The notes beneath the pieces are model-generated. The model saw nothing but the letters and a program-made list of their open reading frames with translations, did no database searches and had not been told where the DNA came from. A program made the translations under genes and the position numbers. From a virus (taxonomy: Duplodnaviria; Caudoviricetes), in IMG/VR virus record IMGVR_UViG_3300033066_002329, positions 1 to 64,000 of that record: a stretch of DNA of 64,000 bases. The stretch is one strand, 5' to 3'. Each line of letters starts with the position of its first letter. Position 1 is the first letter of the stretch. Positions 7,927 through 53,640 of the stretch are shown in pieces.

Positions 7927-7944
7927 CAATTTTAAAAACTTGAG

Positions 7945-8842
7945 ATTACGGTTTTTAGTCCCGAACTTTGGTGGGATTATGTATTCCCCATTAGTCTTTA
8001 TCCAGGTATCTTGCGATACCTATTCGGTAGTCCTGATGAGCTAACGGCCATCACTCTTATCAATTGCTTCTATTCTGCAGATACTTCTCCTATACGATGA
8101 TGCCGCACCATATAAAACTTTCACTACAATCCGCCAAACTTTGTGAGTCTAAACGTTCCTAATTCAATCTTTCGAATGTTAGGATATGAAGAACCTTTCG
8201 AAGACAATCGTGTACGGGGTTTTTACTTTGTGTTATTTTAAACATAAATAGTAGCCTTCCAAGGGCAACTTTCCATCTTTCGATAAAAAGGGTTTCATAA
8301 TGCTCGCTAAGAGACGTACCCGTACAGGGTTGGCTCGGTTCCTTTTGAGAACGGAATACCACTACGCCTCTCTGTAGATGCTGACCGCATCCCACTAATT
8401 AATTTTATACTCTCCATTTGCATCATCCCGTCAAAGATAGCCTTAAATGGTGACGTAAGTATAAAACCTTTTTGACTTATAGCACTTGCCTTGCCTGACT
8501 TGCACAATAAATCTCGACTTTCTTATTTAGATATCCCTATCCTCAACACCACGTCATTATACATGATGTATTTCTCTCATCCATTAAGACATTGAGAAAT
8601 ATACTTATCTTTTGCTTGGTTGTCCTATCCAATGTATTACTACACTGACAAGGCGGAAGTTTGCAAACTCCCCTTTATTCACCATTACTGGGTTTATCTT
8701 TCCCCAGATAATTCCTCTTTCGAGAAACTATCTGTTGAGCCACCTTACGATGACTCAGGACATTGTATAACCTTTCGACTATACCAGGCCCCATGCGACC
8801 TGAATTTTTTTCAATATTTTAAAGAACGTTTCGTTTAATTTT
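7945..8842 (-). ncRNA. large (~0.9 kb) structured non-coding RNA, GOLLD/ROOL-like candidate
   Basis: GC-richer, no credible ORF, many GNRA-capped hairpins, own promoter and terminator, next to tRNA-like genes. Confidence 0.65.
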
Positions 8843-8848
8843 CTTTTG

Positions 8849-8880
8849 CAAATATATGATGACTTTCATCCAAATGCAAA
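8849..8880 (-). promoter_or_regulatory. Bacteroidota primary-sigma promoter TTTG-N20-TATATTTG
   Basis: Matches the -33 TTTG / -7 TAnnTTTG consensus. Confidence 0.75.
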
Positions 8881-9247: not shown

Positions 9248-9928
9248 ATGAAATTACTTTACACAGAACAACAGTTTATACAAGCAAGAGGAAAAGAAGA
9301 ATTACCTTTAAAATGCTATTGTTGTTCAAAAACTTTTTATCTATCAAAAAAAAGAATTAAAGATTGTCTTAATCCTAAAGAAAATAGACAAGGAAAATAT
9401 TGTTCTCCAAAATGTCAATCCGATTCTACAATCAAATATTCAATTTTAAATTGTTTAGTGTGCAAAAAAGAATTTAAAAAAACGCAATCTGAAATTAAAA
9501 AAACTGTATCAGGTAATCATTTTTGCTCTAAATCTTGCTCAGCAACTTATAATAATACTCATAAGACAACTGGCACAAGACGCTCAAAACTGGAAAAATA
9601 TCTTGAAGAACAACTTATCACTCTTTATCCAAATCTATCTATTGATTTCAACAAAAAAGATACAATCAATTCTGAACTTGACATTTATATTCCATCGCTA
9701 AAACTTGCATTTGAACTAAATGGTATATATCATTATGAGCCAATTCATGGCCAATGTAAATTAAGTCAAACACAAAATAATGACCAACGCAAATTTCAAG
9801 CTTGTGCAGAAAATGGTATTTCACTATGTATTATAGATACCTCTAAGCAAAAGTACTTTAAAGAAAGTACCAGCCAAGAATTTCTAAATATCATAATTAA
9901 TATCATAAATAATAAATCAAAGAACTAA
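9248..9928 (+). CDS. PD-(D/E)XK homing-type endonuclease antisense to tRNA cluster; paralog of 41940..42605
   Basis: Cys-rich N-terminus; RRSKLE...ELDIYIPSLKLAFELNG; likely start ATG 9248. Confidence 0.8.
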   Translation: MKLLYTEQQFIQARGKEELPLKCYCCSKTFYLSKKRIKDCLNPKENRQGKYCSPKCQSDSTIKYSILNCLVCKKEFKKTQSEIKKTVSGNHFCSKSCSATYNNTHKTTGTRRSKLEKYLEEQLITLYPNLSIDFNKKDTINSELDIYIPSLKLAFELNGIYHYEPIHGQCKLSQTQNNDQRKFQACAENGISLCIIDTSKQKYFKESTSQEFLNIIINIINNKSKN

Positions 9929-9929
9929 G

Positions 9930-10003
9930 CTCTCCTGACAGGACTCGAACCTGCAACCTCTGATGTTAGGGCACCAGCCGTCTACCAGTTGAAATACAGG
10001 AGA
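9930..10003 (-). tRNA. atypical tRNA-Arg(CCT)-like, 8-nt anticodon loop GCCCTAAC
   Basis: Acceptor TCTCCTG/CAGGAGA; T-arm GCAGG TTCGAGT CCTGT; weak D-stem. Confidence 0.55.
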
Positions 10004-17983: not shown

Positions 17984-18044
17984 ACTAATAAATAGTATAA
18001 AAAATTCGAACTTATAATTTCTTATAGACTTTCGTCTTTTAAAG

Positions 18045-18119
18045 TAGCACAAGAGGGACTCGAACCCCCGTCTCTGCCTTATGAGAGCAGCGTAAGTAAA
18101 CCAACTCTACCATTGTGCC
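18045..18119 (-). tRNA. tRNA-Met/Ile2 (CAT)
   Basis: Canonical cloverleaf, loop CTCATAA. Confidence 0.85.
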
Positions 18120-18247
18120 ATAAAATAAATGCTATAAGTGATATTGCAAGCCACGCCCTGGAGGGAGTCGAACCACTCCAAGTTGGGGCCTCGAACCCCG
18201 CCTCACACTTACTCCTACTACCGTTCGGAATAACATTTATTATTTTT

Positions 18248-18893: not shown

Positions 18894-18916
18894 TGGTTTT
18901 TTAAGTTAAATTTTTG

Positions 18917-18991
18917 AGCAGATGACGGGTCTCGAACCCGCAAAACCTCCACCTTGGCAAGGTGGCGCTCTACCAATTGAGCTACATCTGC
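18917..18991 (-). tRNA. tRNA-Gly(GCC)
   Basis: Canonical, loop TTGCCAA, U73. Confidence 0.92.
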
Positions 18992-18993
18992 AT

Positions 18994-19127
18994 AAAACAG
19001 GGATAGTTTATTAAGAGTGTATTTGTTTTGTTAAGCAGGAGTTGAACCTGCATCCTTTTTCTTGACATGAAAACACTCATCCATTGAGCTTTTAACCGAA
19101 GTAACTCTTAAATATTGCCACTGTTTT
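18994..19127 (-). ncRNA. Y RNA-like (Yrl) element enclosing a tRNA-like cloverleaf
   Basis: Shared arms GTGGC..AAGAGTTACTTC / TACACTCTT..ACTATCCC around D-, anticodon- (ATGTCAA) and T-arms. Confidence 0.65.
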
Positions 19128-19128
19128 G

Positions 19129-19202
19129 AGAGAACAATCGGGATTGAACCGACTCTATTTCGCCTTGGCAAGACGATGCACCACCACTTATGCGTCATTC
19201 TC
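19129..19202 (-). tRNA. tRNA-Gly(GCC), second copy
   Basis: Cloverleaf, loop TTGCCAA, U73. Confidence 0.85.
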
Positions 19203-19253
19203 TTGGAGAGGGACAGGTTATTTATACCTTTAAGGGACTCCCTCAGACCCTTG

Positions 19254-19326
19254 AGCGAAAGACGGGGCTCGAACCCGCCACCCTCAGATTGGAAATCTGA
19301 TGCTCTACCAAATGAGCTACTTTCGC
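19254..19326 (-). tRNA. tRNA-Gly(TCC)
   Basis: Canonical, loop TTTCCAA. Confidence 0.92.
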
Positions 19327-19360
19327 ATATACAGGATTACAAGGTTCCTGAGGACCTTTG

Positions 19361-19434
19361 AGCAAGTGACGGGAATCGAACCCGCTCTGTTCCAGATTGG
19401 AAGTCTGGCGCACCACCGTTTATGCGTCACTTGC
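19361..19434 (-). tRNA. tRNA-Gly(TCC), second copy
   Basis: Canonical, loop CTTCCAA. Confidence 0.9.
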
Positions 19435-19437
19435 ATG

Positions 19438-19599
19438 TTGTAATAGTAATTAAAATGAGTAAAATAGACCGCTGGGTTTAGCCACTCCCCCATCTCCCCA
19501 TTTATAATATTTGTGGGGAGAGTACGATTCGAACATACGTAGAGCATAGCTCGGCGGTTTTAACCAATTTTGAAGTAACTCGCATTGTAGCCATTACAA
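19438..19599 (-). ncRNA. YrlA-like RNA with circularly permuted class-II tRNA module
   Basis: Order: conserved arm, variable arm, T-arm, acceptor TCTCCCC closed by loop to GGGGAGA, D-arm, conserved arm. Confidence 0.7.
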
Positions 19600-19605
19600 T
19601 TTTTT

Positions 19606-19720
19606 TATAGGGATAGTTAAGAAGAGTATGATGCTAACCACTTAGCGTCATCCCCATTATTTAATTTGAGGGGATGACAGGAATCGAACCTGCGAAGTAA
19701 CTCTTACTTTTGCCACTATA
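19606..19720 (-). ncRNA. YrlA-like RNA (permuted T-arm / loop-closed acceptor / D-arm)
   Basis: GCAGG TTCGATT CCTGT, CATCCCC..GGGGATG, GCT AAGTGGTT AGC inside the shared bulged stem. Confidence 0.75.
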
Positions 19721-19746
19721 ATATTTTAAATTCAAAGAACTTTCTG

Positions 19747-19823
19747 TGGAGCGTGTCGTATTCGAAACGACCTGATATTCCTCTTTGCAAAAGAGGTGGC
19801 CAGCCCTAGCAGCCCCATGCCCC
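19747..19823 (-). tRNA. tRNA-Ala(TGC)
   Basis: Loop TTTGCAA, G3:U70. Confidence 0.85.
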
Positions 19824-19882
19824 AGTTACCAATTTTTCTTTTATTTTCAGTGTGCGGTTATTGGTTAACCTATCTGCTACTC

Positions 19883-20533
19883 TTAAAATTTTCTTCCTTT
19901 AGTCCAACCTTGTTTCAAATATGAATCTAATTCTTCTTTTTTTATTTTTTTATTTATACTATCTTTTGTTATCCAACATGTTCCAAATTGTGAATTTTTA
20001 TTTCCAATGCCTTGTTTAGATTTAGTTTCACTCATTTTATTTTTAGTTTTTTCATCATGTTGTTTACCATTCCAATCAAAAAAATATTTTCTTTCTCTTA
20101 CTCCTTCTTCATAAGATTTTATTTGACTTTTTATTTTTTTGTTTATCCAATTTTTTTTGAAAATAGTGTCGTTTTTTAATTTTTCATTAAAAGCTTTTTT
20201 ACCAGCCTTAGAACATTTAATCATATGTTCTTTGTTTGAAAAACCTCCTGAACCACCTTCTTTTAAGTTCATACACAAACTATCTAAAAGTAATTCTTTA
20301 TTTATAATTTCAGACTCTCTATTAATCAACAATTCTCTATTTGGTAAAAATTCAAGTATCTCTTTAACGTGATTTTCAATTCCATATTTTCTAATTGAAT
20401 ATCTTAATTTTGTACCTGAACCCATATATCCATCATCTAACTTTGCTGTTGAATGCATGCCTATATACCATTTTTTAGTTACATTACATGTTGTTTTATA
20501 AATGTAATGTATATTCGCTTTTTTTCTTGCCAC
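19883..20533 (-). CDS. GIY-YIG homing endonuclease between two tRNA-Ala genes; paralog of 21394..22059
   Basis: HYIYKTTC...WYIGMHST...YMGSG. Confidence 0.85.
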   Translation of the reverse strand: MARKKANIHYIYKTTCNVTKKWYIGMHSTAKLDDGYMGSGTKLRYSIRKYGIENHVKEILEFLPNRELLINRESEIINKELLLDSLCMNLKEGGSGGFSNKEHMIKCSKAGKKAFNEKLKNDTIFKKNWINKKIKSQIKSYEEGVRERKYFFDWNGKQHDEKTKNKMSETKSKQGIGNKNSQFGTCWITKDSINKKIKKEELDSYLKQGWTKGRKF

Positions 20534-20591
20534 TTTAAATCATTTCTAAATAAATATTTAGAAATTTTAAAAAGTACAAAAAAGTTTAAGG

Positions 20592-20665
20592 TGGAGATGA
20601 CGGGATTCGAACCCGCATACCTTCTGCTTGCAAAGCAGCTGCTCCGCCAGTTGAGCTACATCCCC
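20592..20665 (-). tRNA. tRNA-Ala(TGC)
   Basis: Canonical, G3:U70. Confidence 0.93.
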
Positions 20666-20669
20666 ATGG

Positions 20670-20749
20670 TCGGAAGTTCACAGAAACTAATCCCCTGCCA
20701 GGCAGGAAACATTTCAAAGGAATGACCTAAATCATTTCTGCTCTCCCGA
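20670..20749 (-). ncRNA. small structured RNA candidate
   Basis: TCGGGAG/CTTCCGA and GCAGAAA/TTTCTGT stems enclosing hairpins. Confidence 0.35.
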
Positions 20750-20758
20750 TATTTTTTT

Positions 20759-21175
20759 CTACTTCCACATTCCACCTTGTCCAAGCCATTCAGAATATTT
20801 TTGATTTCTCTTATCTTTTTTTCTTTCTAGGAAATCATCAAATTCTTTAATTAAAGGCTCAGGAATTTTTATATTTTTATCAATGAAAATTTGCATTATC
20901 TCATCTCTCGTAAAGGTCCAATCTACAATTCCGTCTGTCCATTGGTCTCTCCAAAGCCCCCAACCACTCTTACCTGTAAGTACATGCTTTAAAATATTTG
21001 GATGTCTGGTTTTTATTATTTCACCTTTTTGATATTGTCCATTTTCAAGTTTTCTAAAACAAAATTTTGCTTCATCTCCATTTGGGTCAAACATTATTTT
21101 ATTTTTACTCTCAATATCTGAACCACAAAAAGTTGTAATATTTTGTTTTGAGATTTGAAAGAAAAAGTTAAACAT
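20759..21175 (-). CDS. hypothetical protein
   Basis: ORF within tRNA operon. Confidence 0.6.
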   Translation of the reverse strand: MFNFFFQISKQNITTFCGSDIESKNKIMFDPNGDEAKFCFRKLENGQYQKGEIIKTRHPNILKHVLTGKSGWGLWRDQWTDGIVDWTFTRDEIMQIFIDKNIKIPEPLIKEFDDFLERKKDKRNQKYSEWLGQGGMWK

Positions 21176-21332
21176 TGTATTAAAATTATCAGAATACTTT
21201 TGAAGTTTCCGATTGTGTTTTGTTCCAATTACTTTTTTTCTTTCTTCGATTCTTTGTTGCCTTTCTTGGCCTAAATGGCGTCCAAGCTGTGACCTCCTTG
21301 ATTTTTCATTTTTTTAGTTTTTAAATTGTTTG

Positions 21333-21408
21333 TCAGAGTGGCAGGATTTGAACCTGCGAACTCTCGGCTCCTGACCGAGCGCACTAGACCTGGCTATGCG
21401 ACACTCTG
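21333..21408 (-). tRNA. atypical tRNA-Pro(AGG), loop TCAGGAG
   Basis: C1:G72 acceptor CAGAGTG/CACTCTG, intact T-arm, C33 instead of U33. Confidence 0.65.
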
Positions 21409-22059
21409 TTGTTTTCGTCCTTTGAACCACCCTTTTTTAAGGTGCGAATTAAGTTCTTCTTTTTTTATTTTTTTAGCAATACCTTCTTTAACTATCCAAC
21501 AAGTTCCATATTGAGAATTTTTATTTCCAATACGTTGCTTAGCCTTTTCACTCATTAATTCTTTAGTTTTATCAGATAATTTTTTATTAGTATTTGATTT
21601 GTTACCAAAATTCTTTTTTCTAACACCTGATTCAAAACTTATTTTCCAAGCTTCTGATAATGTTTTAGAATATTGTTTAGACCATTCTTCATTTTTAAAT
21701 AACTCTTTCTTTTTTTCATTAGCAGCTTTACTTATTTTTTTTCTTAATTTTATTGATAAACCAATAAGCCCTCCATCTCCTCCTACTTTTAAATTCATAC
21801 ATTCTTCTTTTGCAATTTCATTGAGATTTACAATCTCTCTTTCTCTTGCAGCCAACTGCTGTCTATCTTCAAAGAACTCTAATATTTCTCTTTTATGGTT
21901 TGCTACACCATATTTGTTAACAGAATATCTCAACCTCTTTCCTGAACCCATATAACCATCATCCAAGTCATTGGTTGAGTGCATTCCAATATAATACTTA
22001 CCACTAAGTAAGTTTGTCGTTTTGTATATGAAGTGATACTTCTTTTCTTTTCTTGCCAT
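21394..22059 (-). CDS. GIY-YIG homing endonuclease
   Basis: HFIYKTTN...YYIGMHST...YMGSG. Confidence 0.85.
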   Translation of the reverse strand: MARKEKKYHFIYKTTNLLSGKYYIGMHSTNDLDDGYMGSGKRLRYSVNKYGVANHKREILEFFEDRQQLAAREREIVNLNEIAKEECMNLKVGGDGGLIGLSIKLRKKISKAANEKKKELFKNEEWSKQYSKTLSEAWKISFESGVRKKNFGNKSNTNKKLSDKTKELMSEKAKQRIGNKNSQYGTCWIVKEGIAKKIKKEELNSHLKKGWFKGRKQQSVA

Positions 22060-22106
22060 AATATCCTTTTAAGATAAATAGAAAGAAAAAGTACAAAAAC
22101 GACCAA

Positions 22107-22195
22107 TGGTAGGTGTAGAGGAATTCGAATCCCCTGTGTATCTTACGTTCTTGTTTTACAGACAAGAGTCACTCCACCGCCGTGACCGTACACCC
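22107..22195 (-). tRNA. tRNA-Tyr(GTA) with encoded CCA
   Basis: Loop CTGTAAA, long variable arm. Confidence 0.88.
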
Positions 22196-22206
22196 ATGTT
22201 TTTTTG

Positions 22207-22288
22207 TGGGAGTGGTCAGATTCGAACTGACTCAGCAAAAGCACTTGTTTTACAGACAAGCCCAACTCTCCAACGTTGGCGCACTCCC
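22207..22288 (-). tRNA. tRNA-Tyr(GTA), second copy
   Basis: Loop CTGTAAA. Confidence 0.88.
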
Positions 22289-22392
22289 ATTAAATGACCC
22301 TTTTCAAAGCCATTTTTCACACTGAACAAACAATGTGGTTAGCCATAACTACTTGAAACTATAGACGTCCGTCTCAAGCAATCTTAGGTTAG

Positions 22393-22466
22393 CGGTCCTG
22401 ACGGGACTCGAACCCGCAACCTTCCCGCAGACAACGGGTTATCCTACCAAATTGGACGACAAGACC
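22393..22466 (-). tRNA. tRNA-Asp(GTC), atypical loop TTGTCTG
   Basis: Cloverleaf, G73, pyrimidine at position 37. Confidence 0.8.
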
Positions 22467-22494
22467 ATTTGAGTTTTAAGTTCTCCAACTTTTG

Positions 22495-22568
22495 CGGTCT
22501 GGACGGAATTCGAATCCGCAATCTTTCCCGTGACAGGGGAACGCCATACACCCATATGCTGCCAAACC
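22495..22568 (-). tRNA. tRNA-Asp(GTC)
   Basis: Loop CTGTCAC, G73. Confidence 0.88.
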
Positions 22569-22596
22569 AAATTAAGTTTTAAGTTCTTCAACTATG

Positions 22597-22685
22597 TCGG
22601 GGTAACAGGACTCGAACCTGCATAAGACTTAAACGTCCATTCTTGTTTCCAAAACAAGTCGTCTTCCAATTGACTACATACCCCG
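22597..22685 (-). tRNA. tRNA-Pro(TGG) with unusually long variable region
   Basis: Loop TTTGGAA; ~20-nt variable segment with GAC/GTC hairpin. Confidence 0.8.
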
Positions 22686-22690
22686 TTATG

Positions 22691-22765
22691 TCGGAAAGAC
22701 GGGGCTCGAACCCGCATAATCTCCTCATCCCAAATGAGGCGAGGTCCCAATTCCTCCACTTTCCG
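22691..22765 (-). tRNA. tRNA-Pro(TGG)
   Basis: Loop TTTGGGA, C1:G72. Confidence 0.9.
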
Positions 22766-22826: not shown

Positions 22827-22864
22827 AAAAAAAAACACCCAACTCTTTTGGAATTGGGTGTTTT
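22827..22864 (-). terminator. attenuator terminator of tRNA operon 1
   Basis: AACACCCAATT-CCAAAAG-AGTTGGGTGTT + T run, between leader and first tRNA. Confidence 0.85.
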
Positions 22865-23065: not shown

Positions 23066-23098
23066 CAAAGATATAAAAAAGTTTCACCTAAATGCAAA
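23066..23098 (-). promoter_or_regulatory. Bacteroidota primary-sigma promoter TTTG-N21-TATCTTTG for leader/tRNA operon 1
   Basis: Consensus match. Confidence 0.75.
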
Positions 23099-42913: not shown

Positions 42914-42945
42914 CAAATATATAAAAGGTTTCAATTAAATGCAAA
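42914..42945 (-). promoter_or_regulatory. Bacteroidota primary-sigma promoter TTTG-N20-TATATTTG for leader/tRNA operon 2
   Basis: Consensus match. Confidence 0.75.
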
Positions 42946-51786: not shown

Positions 51787-53238
51787 TTATAATTCTACAC
51801 TATTTTTAATTGTATTAGTAAGAATGTTAATATCTTGCTCTGCAAGTTTCATAAGGTCAAAAATCTTTTCAGAAAATCCAACTAAAAAAATCACCTTATT
51901 TCCAACAAATTGAATTGTTGGATTACCTGCTAAATCAAAATTATATAAAAATGGATTTGCCCCTGTTTTCTTTTTATAATCATTAAAGCAATATTGACTT
52001 GAATTCATTTGACCCCAAGCTTCTCCATCTGATAATATAATCAAACGGTCATATTTATTTTTTTCTTTATCCATTAATTCAAAAAACTTACTATATTTTG
52101 TTCCTCCAAGGTCAATTCCATTAAACTTTTCACTGATAGTAAAAATACTATCTTTTAAATTAAAGTTTACATAATTAGCAGTATCTCCAAATACAATTAC
52201 ATCAGCATTATTTGATTTTGCTAATACAGCAGCAAATAAACCTCCAATTTTAGTTGGTTGACCACGCATAGAACCTGAACGGTCATATATTACACAAGTT
52301 TTTCCTGGTAATGCTGGAACATTAGAACAAGATATTTCAATAGCATCTTCTAATGCTGAGATAACTTGTCTCGAATTGCTTCCTCCTACTTTTTGCAATT
52401 CCTCAATTGCAGTTACAAATTGAAAAGGTAATATTAAAGACTTGGAAATTAAATTTTTATCTCTAAGCAAATTACATGCAGCATCTATAGACTCAGGAGA
52501 TTGAATCATTATATTTCTCAAATTTCTTACAAGAGCTAAATAACCAATCTTCTTAGTTTCAATAAGTTCTTTCCAAACTTGAGCCTTTTTTTCATTTTTA
52601 TCATTACCTGAATTAGACTGTCCTGCCTCAGAAAGTTTTGCCTCCCATGTATCTGTATTTTTTAAAGTACCATTAATAAGTTCAGCAAGAGCTTTCTTGT
52701 TTTTATTTGTTGCTTTAGGATGTACTAAATTAACAATATCAACAAGAGAAACTTCATTTCCTTCTCCTTTATATTTTGCCAATTGATATCCATCAAATTT
52801 ATCAAATGCCTTCGAAAATCCTTTTTTCAGAGAATTTGGTAAAGCCTTATTTTTATTTTTAATAAAATAATAAGATATAATTTCACTCATATCATCTGGT
52901 CTATTAATAATATCTTCAAAGAATTTTTTACTCCATTCTTTACCTGACAAGTATTTCGCAACTTCAACTGCAAGTACATGAGTAATAGAACGCATACCAA
53001 ATGTAGTTCTTGCATATATAGCAGCTTTTGCTGCAAATTTTGGGTCTACTTTTGTTAGTAATTCAGGAATCCTTTTTAAGGTATCTGTAGACTTTTTATA
53101 AAATTGGTCTTGTACAAATGAAGTTAAAAGAATTGACACTAATTCTACTTCTGCTGTTTTTTCATATGCTTGACCACCTGCATAATTAACAGCTTCAACT
53201 CTCTGTGGAGTTATCTTTTTTGTGTTAAATTTTCCCAT
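51787..53238 (-). CDS. Ro60/Rsr-like TROVE-vWA RNA-binding protein
   Basis: NYAGGQAY; YQLAKYK; YLALVRNLRN; YDRSGSM; LSDGE. Confidence 0.88.
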   Translation of the reverse strand: MGKFNTKKITPQRVEAVNYAGGQAYEKTAEVELVSILLTSFVQDQFYKKSTDTLKRIPELLTKVDPKFAAKAAIYARTTFGMRSITHVLAVEVAKYLSGKEWSKKFFEDIINRPDDMSEIISYYFIKNKNKALPNSLKKGFSKAFDKFDGYQLAKYKGEGNEVSLVDIVNLVHPKATNKNKKALAELINGTLKNTDTWEAKLSEAGQSNSGNDKNEKKAQVWKELIETKKIGYLALVRNLRNIMIQSPESIDAACNLLRDKNLISKSLILPFQFVTAIEELQKVGGSNSRQVISALEDAIEISCSNVPALPGKTCVIYDRSGSMRGQPTKIGGLFAAVLAKSNNADVIVFGDTANYVNFNLKDSIFTISEKFNGIDLGGTKYSKFFELMDKEKNKYDRLIILSDGEAWGQMNSSQYCFNDYKKKTGANPFLYNFDLAGNPTIQFVGNKVIFLVGFSEKIFDLMKLAEQDINILTNTIKNSVEL

Positions 53239-53304: not shown

Positions 53305-53383
53305 ATTCAAACACACTAAAATAAGTTGTATAATTTTATAGCCTGAAATATTCAGGCACTTCCTTATCTTAGTATTTATTTTT

Positions 53384-53453
53384 ATAGGGATATTGTAAAA
53401 AGAGTATTTTGATAAATCTTGGTAATCGAAGTAACTCTTTTAGTCGCCACTAT
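53384..53453 (-). ncRNA. minimal Y RNA-like element (no tRNA module) upstream of Ro60
   Basis: ATAGTGGC..AAAAGAGTTACTTC..TACTCTTTT..ATATCCCTAT; same arms as the three elements at 19.0-19.7 kb. Confidence 0.7.
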
Positions 53454-53640
53454 TTTTTTACTTTTATAAATAACTAATATTATATATATTTAAAATTTAA
53501 TAAAACACTTCTCTTAAATCAAATATTTTTATGTTTTTTTTGTAACTTATTGATTTTCAATGCTAAAATTACTTATTAACTTATATTTTTTTTTCTTTTT
53601 ACGCAAAAAAACATTTATATTTATAAATAAACAGGTTGAT

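What the first reader, a model, noticed from the sequence alone, without database searches (positions are those of the whole stretch)
18994..19720. Three YrlA-like Y RNAs embedded in the attenuated tRNA operon
Three elements share terminal arms (GTGGC/ATGGC..GAGTTACTTC and TAC(A)CTC..ACTAT) with a fourth copy upstream of the Ro60 gene. Two enclose a circularly permuted tRNA (T-arm, acceptor closed by an AU-rich loop, D-arm), the established YrlA architecture. The third encloses a normally ordered cloverleaf with a GTC loop. The 19438 copy keeps a class-II variable arm and anticodon stem. Because they lie downstream of attenuator 1, Y RNAs would be co-induced with tRNAs under tRNA stress, linking phage Ro60 RNPs to tRNA damage or repair.
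Basis: partly seen in the sequence, partly recalled or inferred. Interest (0 to 1): 0.8.

Follow-up and report, generated by a model that had tools for sequence, protein, structure and literature searches.

The report
Phage Y RNAs inside tRNA operon
Three small RNA genes wedged between the tRNA genes of a large uncultured phage belong to the Y RNA family, the partners of the Ro60 protein that this phage also encodes. They are new and partly unusual members of a known class, not a new kind of system.

Summary
Three minus-strand elements, A (19603-19723), B (19436-19601) and C (18993-19128), share a closing stem and the motif GAGUUACUUC with a fourth, D (53380-53457), just upstream of the Ro60/TROVE gene (51787-53238).

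- **Interiors.** A and B enclose T arm, loop-closed acceptor stem, D arm, which is the YrlA layout. B also keeps an anticodon stem and a class II variable arm. C encloses a normal-order cloverleaf with a GUC loop.
- **Rfam.** The YrlA model (RF02553) does not hit them.
- **Own model.** A covariance model built only from other phages' elements ranks C, A, D and B as the window's only full-length matches that are not an ordinary tRNA gene (43.7, 41.5, 29.7, 23.5 bits).
- **Link to YrlA.** Some seed sequences match RF02553 end to end (E 7e-7 to 1e-3). 46 of 64 loci found by the RNA motif alone carry Ro60 in the same stretch, usually within about 1.5 kb.
- **Relatives.** Huge phages also keep Y RNAs in tRNA arrays 20-150 kb from Ro60.

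Co-transcription with the tRNAs is plausible but not shown. Ro60 binding, and a link to tRNA damage or repair, are inferences. This scan has noted similar RNAs in other phages.

The parts
19603..19723 (-). Y RNA A, minimal YrlA-type. 5' arm 19700-19721 (AUAGUGGC...AAGAGU); motif GAGUUACUUCG 19693-19703; T arm 19677-19693; acceptor hairpin 19648-19677 (8-9 bp, AU-rich 13-nt loop); D arm 19633-19646; 3' arm 19605-19627 (ACUCUU...CCCUAUA).
   Evidence: R1 41.5 bits, E 1.2e-10, full length 1-138. MFE fold z = -3.9. Motif hits.
19436..19601 (-). Y RNA B, YrlA-type with a class II tRNA module opened at the anticodon loop. Motif 19572-19581; anticodon-stem strands 19554-19558 and 19468-19472; variable arm 19542-19552; T arm 19522-19538; acceptor hairpin 19493-19521; D arm 19474-19490; ACUC 19457-19460.
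   Evidence: R1 23.5 bits, E 4e-5, full length, with mismatches in the inner helix. Folds. This is the weakest of the four.
18993..19128 (-). Y RNA C: the same closing stem around a normal-order cloverleaf (19027-19098) with a 5-bp acceptor helix and anticodon loop AUGUCAA (19062-19068).
   Evidence: R1 43.7 bits, E 2.6e-11. Rfam tRNA 44.8 bits on the interior. No ARAGORN call. The same layout occurs in L210:7711-7847 and L271:5805-5941.
53380..53457 (-). Y RNA D: short hairpin form (YrlB-like) with the same arms and no tRNA module, about 140 nt upstream of the Ro60 start codon.
   Evidence: R1 29.7 bits, E 5e-7. Sequence. Covered by another report of this scan.
51787..53238 (-). Ro60 gene (TROVE plus Ro60-type vWA domains), the presumed protein partner.
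   Evidence: Pfam TROVE 84.3 bits and vWA_Ro60 31.2 bits. 52% amino-acid identity to a gene of the 635-kb uncultured phage LR745206.1.
19746..19823 (-). tRNA-Ala(UGC), directly upstream of A (22-nt spacer).
   Evidence: ARAGORN.
19360..19434 (-). tRNA-Gly(UCC). Its 5' end lies 1-4 nt after B's closing stem, so RNase P cleavage here would make B's 3' end.
   Evidence: ARAGORN and Rfam.
19129..19202 (-). tRNA with anticodon loop UUGCCAA (Gly GCC). Its 3' end abuts C's 5' arm.
   Evidence: Rfam tRNA 36.6 bits. Not called by ARAGORN. Loop read.
18916..18991 (-). tRNA-Gly(GCC). Its 5' end lies directly after C's 3' tail (CCCUGUUUUAU).
   Evidence: ARAGORN and Rfam.
23066..23098 (-). The only Bacteroidota-type promoter match (TTTG-N-TAnnTTTG) upstream of the tRNA and Y RNA run.
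   Evidence: Pattern scan: 15 matches against 5.4 expected; none on the minus strand between 23066 and 18900.
22832..22864 (-). Strong terminator hairpin of the leader attenuator reported by another agent. It is the only strong minus-strand terminator before the Y RNAs.
Evidence: Terminator scan: 14 pairs followed by a T run.

Best explanation
A, B and C are genes for Y RNAs, the small non-coding partners of Ro60, in the YrlA-type branch that carries a tRNA-like module. The steps below are marked as shown or inferred.

1. **Transcription (inferred).** They are made as part of the polycistronic tRNA transcript that starts at the promoter near 23.1 kb.
2. **Release (inferred).** They are cut out by the enzymes that mature the neighbouring tRNAs. 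RNase P at the 5' end of the next tRNA would set the 3' ends of B and C. 3' processing of the preceding tRNA would set the 5' end of C.
3. **Docking (family membership shown, binding inferred).** The conserved closing stem, GUGGC...GAGUUACUUC paired with ACUC...CCC, would be the site for the phage's own Ro60, encoded 32 kb away.
4. **Effector modules (anatomy shown, role inferred).** Each RNA shows a different tRNA-shaped module on the other side of the ring. A shows a bare tRNA elbow, B a class II tRNA body, and C a whole cloverleaf with an Asp-type anticodon loop. As in the Deinococcus, Salmonella and Thermus-phage systems, these modules would tether or gate a partner: host PNPase, or a tRNA-recognising enzyme.

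Shown here: the anatomy, membership of a Ro60-linked RNA family, covariation in the stems, and co-occurrence with Ro60 genes.

Inferred: expression, processing, Ro60 binding and the effector.
For: - **CM on the window.** Model R1 was built from 36 elements of other phages. It finds C, A, D and B as full-length matches at 43.7, 41.5, 29.7 and 23.5 bits. Every match that outscores B, apart from these, is a partial one spanning two adjacent tRNAs. The remaining full-length matches are weaker and overlap ordinary tRNA genes.
- **Bridge to YrlA.** R1 seed members L216, L219, L186 and L195 match Rfam YrlA RF02553 over positions 1-114, with E 7e-7 to 1e-3.
- **Ro60 next door.** Loci were fetched by the RNA motif alone. 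Of these, 46 of 64 carry a Ro60 homologue in the same stretch, mostly 10-1500 nt from the element.
- **Ro60 in the same genome.** TROVE genes are present in 5 of 5 and in 13 of 17 motif-positive large phage records, and in 9 of 10 that are at least 90% complete. The one exception is a false positive (an ordinary tRNA-Tyr).
- **Covariation.** The closing stem and inner helix are 93% paired, with compensatory changes at all 14 pairs. Slid controls give about 45%.
- **Same arrangement in relatives.** Full-length Y RNAs lie inside tRNA arrays 20-150 kb from Ro60 in G001-G004 and LR745206.1, often 0-30 nt from a tRNA.
- **Precedents.** D. radiodurans Yrn1 and Yrn2 are made on one precursor with tRNA-Asp, and M. 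smegmatis YrlA is cut by RNase P (PMC4201824). Thermus phage phiLo Ro60 binds two phage Y RNAs and host PNPase (PMC12135203).
Against: - Rfam RF02553 gives no match on A-D. Only E about 1-7 matches appear, at other places.
- The published 5'-strand Ro60 motif GNCGAAN0-1G is only loosely present: GGCAAAAG in A, GGCGACUA in D, worse in B and C.
- A-C lie 32-34 kb from Ro60, outside the 4-kb neighbourhood used to validate YrlA.
- B scores low, and its thermodynamic fold is ambiguous.
- A and C have A, not U, at tRNA position 8. The phage's own odd tRNAs share this.
- There is no expression or binding data. The host is uncultured and the record is only 29% complete.
Confidence: 0.75

Rival explanations
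1. Ro60-independent cis elements of the tRNA operon. On this reading the stem-closed structures serve as processing punctuation, RNase E/III entry sites or stabilisers for the polycistronic tRNA precursor. The copy upstream of Ro60 would be a separate regulatory hairpin that merely shares the motif.
For: - The elements abut tRNAs at 1-25 nt.
- No binding data exist.
Against: - The same motif family lies next to Ro60 genes in 46 of 64 loci, many without any tRNA in the stretch (24 of 72 elements).
- The interiors keep tRNA elbow features, which a processing hairpin does not need.
- Covariation keeps a specific two-helix stem across very different phages.
Confidence: 0.1
2. Permuted or masked pre-tRNAs that mature into working tRNAs. 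The closing stem would be removed and the ends joined, as for the permuted tRNA genes of Cyanidioschyzon merolae. For C, RNase P and RNase Z would simply excise the cloverleaf.
For: - A and B have 7-9-bp acceptor helices, the length that made M. smegmatis YrlA an RNase P substrate (PMC4201824).
- Wang et al. raise this possibility for YrlA (10.1101/312249).
- ARAGORN calls the C-type relative L210:7711-7847 as tRNA-Pro, and by my reading its acceptor helix has 7 pairs.
- The relative G001 encodes RtcB.
Against: - A has no anticodon arm at all.
- C's acceptor helix has only 5 pairs, with positions 1-72 and 2-71 mismatched, and ARAGORN rejects it.
- No bulge-helix-bulge motif or splicing endonuclease is known in bacteria or phages.
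- The phage already carries two tRNA-Asp(GUC) genes.
- The closing stem is conserved in sequence, which an excised spacer need not be.
Confidence: 0.05
3. Decaying remnants of tRNA gene rearrangements: tRNA dimers and fragments that happen to be flanked by a repeated sequence and have no function of their own.
For: - R1 also gives partial matches across pairs of neighbouring tRNAs, showing how easily a T arm plus the next D arm imitates the module.
- A's acceptor strands and T arm resemble the phage's tRNA-Ala.
Against: - Four paralogs keep the stem through compensatory changes.
- Homologous elements with the same ends occur in hundreds of viral contigs.
- Acceptor hairpins and T/D arms are intact in all copies.
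Confidence: 0.05

Closest known systems
YrlA (Y RNA-like A; Rfam RF02553; Chen et al. 2014, PMC4201824; crystal structure in Wang et al. 2018, 10.1101/312249)
   Same: - The 5' and 3' ends pair into a bulged stem.
- A YUAY motif (here UUAC) follows the stem.
- The interior is T arm, loop-closed acceptor stem, D arm (A and B).
- A Ro60 gene lies in the same genome on the same strand.
- Phage examples are already known.
   Different: - Below Rfam's threshold.
- The 5' motif reads GUGGCAA rather than GNCGAA.
- The elements lie 32-34 kb from Ro60, inside a tRNA operon.
- B keeps an anticodon stem and a class II variable arm.
- C has the tRNA parts in normal order, with an anticodon loop.
Short hairpin Y RNAs: S. 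Typhimurium and M. smegmatis YrlB, D. radiodurans Yrn2 (PMC4201824)
   Same: Copy D is a long hairpin with the same Ro60-type stem and a small interior, placed directly upstream of Ro60. This matches the pattern of one tRNA-like and one hairpin Y RNA per genome.
   Different: Here the hairpin form alone stays beside Ro60, and the tRNA-like forms are elsewhere.
D. radiodurans Yrn2-tRNA-Asp-Yrn1 polycistronic precursor, and the dimeric-tRNA origin model (PMC4201824; Sim and Wolin 2018, as cited in 10.1101/312249)
   Same: Y RNAs are interleaved with tRNA genes and presumably released by tRNA processing. The modules look like the 3' part of one tRNA joined to the 5' part of the next.
   Different: This is a phage operon of more than 14 tRNAs, with three Y RNAs of three different designs, under a leader-peptide attenuator according to another agent's report.
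Thermus phage phiLo Ro60 with Yrl1 and Yrl2 (PMC12135203)
   Same: A phage-encoded Ro60 with its own Y RNAs, shown there to assemble with host PNPase. This is the most direct functional model.
   Different: The phiLo RNAs are stem-bulge-stem hairpins right upstream of the gene, with a CGAA motif and no tRNA module or tRNA array.
Bas63 gp130, a Ro60-like protein next to the phage's tRNA genes (bioRxiv 10.1101/2024.10.10.617714)
   Same: The authors suggest that some 'tRNA genes' beside a phage Ro60-like gene are really Y RNAs. They show that the protein counters the Ppl defence system.
   Different: That proposal was not tested at the RNA level, and gp130 resembles Ro60 by structure only. Here the protein is a clear TROVE/vWA Ro60, and the RNAs are identified by homology.

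Membership tests
YrlA-type Y RNA (Chen et al. 2014; Rfam RF02553) | The 5' and 3' ends pair into a long bulged stem, supported by covariation. | tested here: met
   Folds. Compensatory differences among A-D. Family-wide, 93% paired with changes on both sides at all 14 stem pairs, against about 45% when slid.
YrlA-type Y RNA (Chen et al. 2014; Rfam RF02553) | Interior ordered T arm, loop-closed acceptor stem, D arm, with tRNA-like T and D loops. | tested here: met
   Met for A and B. Not met for C, whose cloverleaf is in normal order.
YrlA-type Y RNA (Chen et al. 2014; Rfam RF02553) | Conserved YUAY after the stem, at the start of the variable region. | tested here: met
   UUAC within GAGUUACUUC in all four copies. 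This motif is invariant in the 36-sequence seed, which was selected by it.
YrlA-type Y RNA (Chen et al. 2014; Rfam RF02553) | 5'-strand Ro60 motif GNCGAAN0-1G. | tested here: inconclusive
   A has GGCAAAAG, D GGCGACUA, C GGCAAUAU, B GGCUACAA. The wider phage family reads G-N-Y-G-U-A-G. The motifs are related but do not match.
YrlA-type Y RNA (Chen et al. 2014; Rfam RF02553) | Score at or above Rfam's gathering threshold (69 bits). | tested here: not met
   No RF02553 match on A-D, even at E up to 10. Canonical phage relatives reach only 32-44 bits. The Rfam model is evidently narrow.
YrlA-type Y RNA (Chen et al. 2014; Rfam RF02553) | Encoded within about 4 kb of the Ro60 gene on the same strand (the validation criterion of Chen et al.). 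| tested here: not met
   Same strand: yes. Distance is 32-34 kb for A-C, and D alone is adjacent. Other huge phages show the same distal placement.
YrlA-type Y RNA (Chen et al. 2014; Rfam RF02553) | Bound by Ro60/Rsr; carries tRNA modifications (pseudouridine 55, dihydrouridine). | not testable with these tools
   Needs RIP or EMSA, and modification mapping.
Phage Ro60-adjacent Y RNA family with the GAGUUACUUC motif (defined here by model R1) | Significant full-length match to a covariance model built from members in other phages. | tested here: met
   C 43.7, A 41.5, D 29.7, B 23.5 bits, all over model positions 1-138. 46 of 64 of the family's loci carry Ro60 nearby.
Functional tRNA (for the cloverleaf inside C) | 7-bp acceptor stem with a paired 1-72, a free 3' end, and a call by tRNA finders. 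| tested here: not met
   Rfam tRNA gives 44.8 bits, but the acceptor helix has 5 pairs, positions 1-72 and 2-71 are mismatched, and ARAGORN makes no call.
Permuted tRNA genes (Cyanidioschyzon merolae type) | A complete anticodon arm is regenerated after removal of the joining stem at a bulge-helix-bulge motif. | tested here: not met
   A has no anticodon stem. B has a stem but no recognisable loop halves. No BHB motif is seen.

The most novel reading that the evidence does not exclude
In huge phages the Ro60 docking stem may be a modular scaffold that displays interchangeable tRNA parts: elbows, class II bodies, or whole cloverleaves with specific anticodon loops. Examples are GUC in this window, and GUA and GUU beside tRNA-Tyr and tRNA-Asn in a 372-kb relative. 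Made from the same attenuator-gated transcript as the phage's replacement tRNAs, these RNPs would act as isoacceptor-specific decoys or sensors. Their targets would be host tRNA-cleaving or tRNA-sensing defences, and damaged RNAs would be handed to PNPase or an RNA ligase. The arrays would also be the place where new Y RNAs arise from tRNA dimers.
Probability: 0.12. Interest if true: 0.8.

Novelty: new variant of a known kind. Interest (0 to 1): 0.5.

Why it matters
**What the literature has.** Y RNAs and Ro60 are known from animals, bacteria and a few phages. They have been sought, and validated, only within a few kilobases of the Ro60 gene.

**What this case adds.** Large phages keep several Y RNAs of different designs inside their tRNA operons, tens of kilobases from Ro60. 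The tRNA-like module also comes in more forms than the published permuted layout. These include a class II body with an anticodon stem, and a whole normal-order cloverleaf.

**What it gives experimenters.**
- Named RNA partners to test against a phage Ro60.
- Sequence support for the proposal that Y RNAs arise from tRNA dimers.
- A concrete link between Ro60 particles and the phage's tRNA supply.

**Practical point.** Phage "tRNA counts" from gene finders can hide, or mislabel, these RNAs.

Tried and rejected
- **Rfam on the window** (gathering and E up to 10). There was no YrlA hit on the elements. The two weak RF02553 hits span a T arm and the next tRNA's D arm, so they are artefacts.
- **First collection scan,** TGGC-N6-12-GAGTTACTTC. 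It was not used.
- **The search for related loci with the single Ro60 protein** found nothing.
- **GAGWTACTTC sites in LR745206.1**. Most lie inside genes and are chance. Only those at 240.6 kb, 240.7 kb and 388.9 kb are Y-like.
- **Weak full-length R1 hits** at 17991-18122, 20567-20654 and 9855-9996. They overlap ordinary or odd tRNAs and lack the motif, so I rejected them as Y RNAs.
- **Parent tRNAs for A-C in the record**. Only T-arm similarity and a tRNA-Ala-like acceptor in A were found, with no recent copy.
- **Anticodon-arm matches between relatives' Y RNAs and neighbouring tRNAs**. There is one 23/23 identity (a 5' half to tRNA-Asn). Otherwise the arms are generic, which is suggestive only.
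- **RtcB and Rnl2 families in this record**. None was found, but the record is 29% complete.
- **Two review papers** (PMC10870794, PMC6047535) are not held in the library.

Full report
**What the window is.** The window is the first 64 kb of an 88.9-kb IMG/VR virus record, estimated 29% complete.
- It carries 18 ARAGORN tRNAs plus two more seen only by Rfam, and a GOLLD RNA.
- It has a Ro60 gene at 51787-53238 on the minus strand: TROVE 84 bits, Ro60-type vWA 31 bits.
- Its best relative in the cultured and deposited phage set is the 635-kb uncultured phage LR745206.1, at 52% amino-acid identity.
- Promoter matches are of the Bacteroidota type.

**The observation.** On the minus strand the run reads as follows:
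- tRNA-Ala(UGC) 19746-19823
- element A 19603-19723
- element B 19436-19601
- tRNA-Gly(UCC) 19360-19434
- tRNA-Gly(UCC) 19253-19326
- a tRNA with a GCC loop, 19129-19202
- element C 18993-19128
- tRNA-Gly(GCC) 18916-18991

A, B and C, and a fourth element D upstream of Ro60 (53380-53457), all begin with (A/G)UGGC, 6-9 nt, then GAGUUACUUC. All end with ACUC, 6-9 nt, then a stretch that pairs with the first bases. The combined 5' pattern occurs four times in the record and never in the reversed control. The terminal pairs differ compensatorily between copies: UAUAG/CUAUA, ACAG/CUGU, UUGUAA/UUACAA, AUAG/CUAU.

**The interiors.**
- **A** folds as predicted (z = -3.9): closing stem, inner helix, then T arm, acceptor hairpin closed by an AU-rich loop, and D arm.
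- **B** has the same three arms plus an ACCGC/GCGGU stem and a GAGC-UAU-GCUC arm, which is a class II tRNA opened at the anticodon loop. Its MFE is not unique.
- **C** holds a cloverleaf in normal order, which Rfam's tRNA model scores at 44.8 bits, with loop AUGUCAA. It has only five acceptor pairs and two terminal mismatches, and ARAGORN does not call it.

**Are they Y RNAs?** Rfam's YrlA model does not see them, so I looked for relatives.
- Most hits show one architecture: a GUAG-type 5' strand, GAGUUACUUCG, a hairpin with a 7-nt anticodon-like loop, AGGUC, T arm, acceptor hairpin, D arm, ACUCU and a pyrimidine-rich 3' strand.
- An alignment of 36 of them shows compensatory changes in the closing stem, inner helix, T stem and D stem.
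- I built the covariance model R1 from these alone. With filters off, it ranks C (43.7 bits, E 2.6e-11), A (41.5, 1.2e-10), D (29.7, 5e-7) and B (23.5, 4e-5) among the top six matches, all full length.
- The other two top matches cover only model positions 29-104 and span two neighbouring tRNAs. That artefact is itself a reminder of the dimeric-tRNA origin model. Weaker full-length matches overlap ordinary tRNA genes and lack the motif.
- No further copies lie in the rest of the record.

**The bridge to YrlA and Ro60.**
- Several seed members match Rfam RF02553 over its whole length: L216 43.8 bits (E 7e-7), L219, L201, L186, L195, L106. All are below the curated 69 bits.
- 46 of the 64 loci that the RNA motif alone brought in carry a Ro60 homologue in the same short stretch, mostly 10-1500 nt from the element. 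This is the context by which Chen et al. validated YrlA (PMC4201824).
- In whole records, a TROVE gene is present in 5 of 5 huge phages. It is present in 13 of 17 further records, and in 9 of 10 that are at least 90% complete. The one complete exception was brought in by an ordinary tRNA-Tyr.
- On a model-fitted alignment of 82 matches, the two stem helices are 93% paired with changes on both sides at every pair. The figure is about 45% when partners are slid.

**The distal, tRNA-embedded placement is general.**
- In four IMG/VR huge phages (345-455 kb) and LR745206.1, full-length R1 matches lie 20-150 kb from Ro60, on its strand, inside tRNA arrays and often 0-30 nt from a tRNA.
- The 372-kb phage G001 has the same end sequences as the window (CAGUGGCAAC...GAGUUACUUCG ... 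UUUUCCCUG). Its Y RNAs have hairpin loops CUGUAAA and CUGUUAA, and they sit beside tRNA-Tyr(GUA) and tRNA-Asn(GUU) respectively.
- Close relatives of the window's Ro60 (tblastn E 1e-119 to 1e-144) instead have up to five Y-like elements directly upstream of the gene.
- The normal-order design of C recurs in L210:7711-7847 and L271:5805-5941. These share its T arm and its ACAAAUACAC-type linker but have other anticodon loops. A further variant lacks the acceptor 5' strand.

**Transcription and processing (inference).**
- The only Bacteroidota-type promoter match upstream of the run is at 23066-23098.
- The only strong minus-strand terminator is the attenuator hairpin at 22832-22864. A weaker hairpin lies at 20690-20710.
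- Three ORFs, one with faint GIY-YIG similarity, lie between.
- The 3' tails of B and C end where the next tRNA begins, and C's 5' arm follows a tRNA's 3' end. tRNA processing would therefore define these ends.
- A and B have acceptor helices of at least 7 bp. That is the feature which made M. smegmatis YrlA an RNase P substrate, so two-piece forms are possible.

**Function (inference).** The established roles of Y RNAs are to tether Ro60 to PNPase and to gate its cavity. A phage Ro60 with its Y RNAs binds host PNPase in vitro (PMC12135203). A Ro60-like protein of phage Bas63, encoded next to its tRNA genes, counters the Ppl defence system, and its authors guessed that some of those 'tRNAs' are Y RNAs (10.1101/2024.10.10.617714). 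No RNA ligase is present in this partial record. G001 has RtcB, and all four complete or near-complete relatives have Rnl2-type ligases. The link to tRNA damage or repair is therefore possible but unsupported here.

**Novelty.**
- Already published: phage Y RNAs, their tRNA mimicry, and occasional adjacency to tRNAs.
- Not found in the searchable literature: identified Y RNAs embedded in phage tRNA operons far from Ro60; the class II and normal-order cloverleaf modules; the breadth of this GAGUUACUUC family.
- Other agents of this scan have reported similar RNAs in other phages. Those are unpublished AI notes.

I class the finding as a new variant of a known kind, of moderate interest.

Noticed in passing
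window 7937-8372 (-), promoter-like site 8849-8880 (-): A GOLLD RNA (Rfam 156.5 bits, just over its threshold of 150). Upstream is a Bacteroidota-type promoter match whose sequence (TTTGCATTTGGATGAAA...) closely resembles those in front of the two tRNA operons (23066-23098, 42914-42945).
   Followed up: no
window 18916-22765 (-): Most isoacceptors come in pairs: Gly-UCC, Gly-GCC, Ala-UGC, Asp-GUC, Tyr-GUA and Pro-UGG. One copy has a canonical UAGCUCA...GGUAGAGC D arm. The other has an odd D arm and A8-C9 (for example 19360-19434 and 19129-19202), or is otherwise aberrant (19746-19823). Y RNA A shares the A8-C9 feature.
   Followed up: partly
window 9929-10003 (-): A tRNA-like gene (Rfam 40.3 bits) for which ARAGORN reports a two-base anticodon, meaning an abnormal anticodon loop. 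It lies about 1.5 kb from the GOLLD RNA.
   Followed up: no
L001:2625-2890 (LR745206.1, about 240.71-240.98 kb): Directly after the short Y hairpin upstream of that phage's Ro60 lies a roughly 260-nt element. It opens with AGCGAUA...GAGAUACUUCG and closes with UAUCGCU, so it has a Y-type stem around a large non-tRNA interior.
   Followed up: no
L281 and L284 (G001, IMGVR_UViG_3300014208_000024, 34.6-49.1 kb): At least six Y RNAs lie in the tRNA arrays of a complete 372-kb phage. Two have hairpin loops carrying the anticodon of the adjacent tRNA (GUA by Tyr, GUU by Asn). One has a 5' half identical over 23 nt to a nearby tRNA-Asn.
   Followed up: partly
L192:3706-4491, L210:5948-11298, L271:985-5941: Relatives carry runs of five to seven Y-like elements of mixed design next to Ro60. 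Multi-copy modular Y RNA sets therefore seem to be the rule in these phages.
   Followed up: partly
window 19883-20533, 20759-21175, 21394-22059 (-): Three ORFs are interleaved with the tRNA genes. Only the last shows a faint GIY-YIG/SegE homing-endonuclease signal (E about 5e-3).
   Followed up: partly
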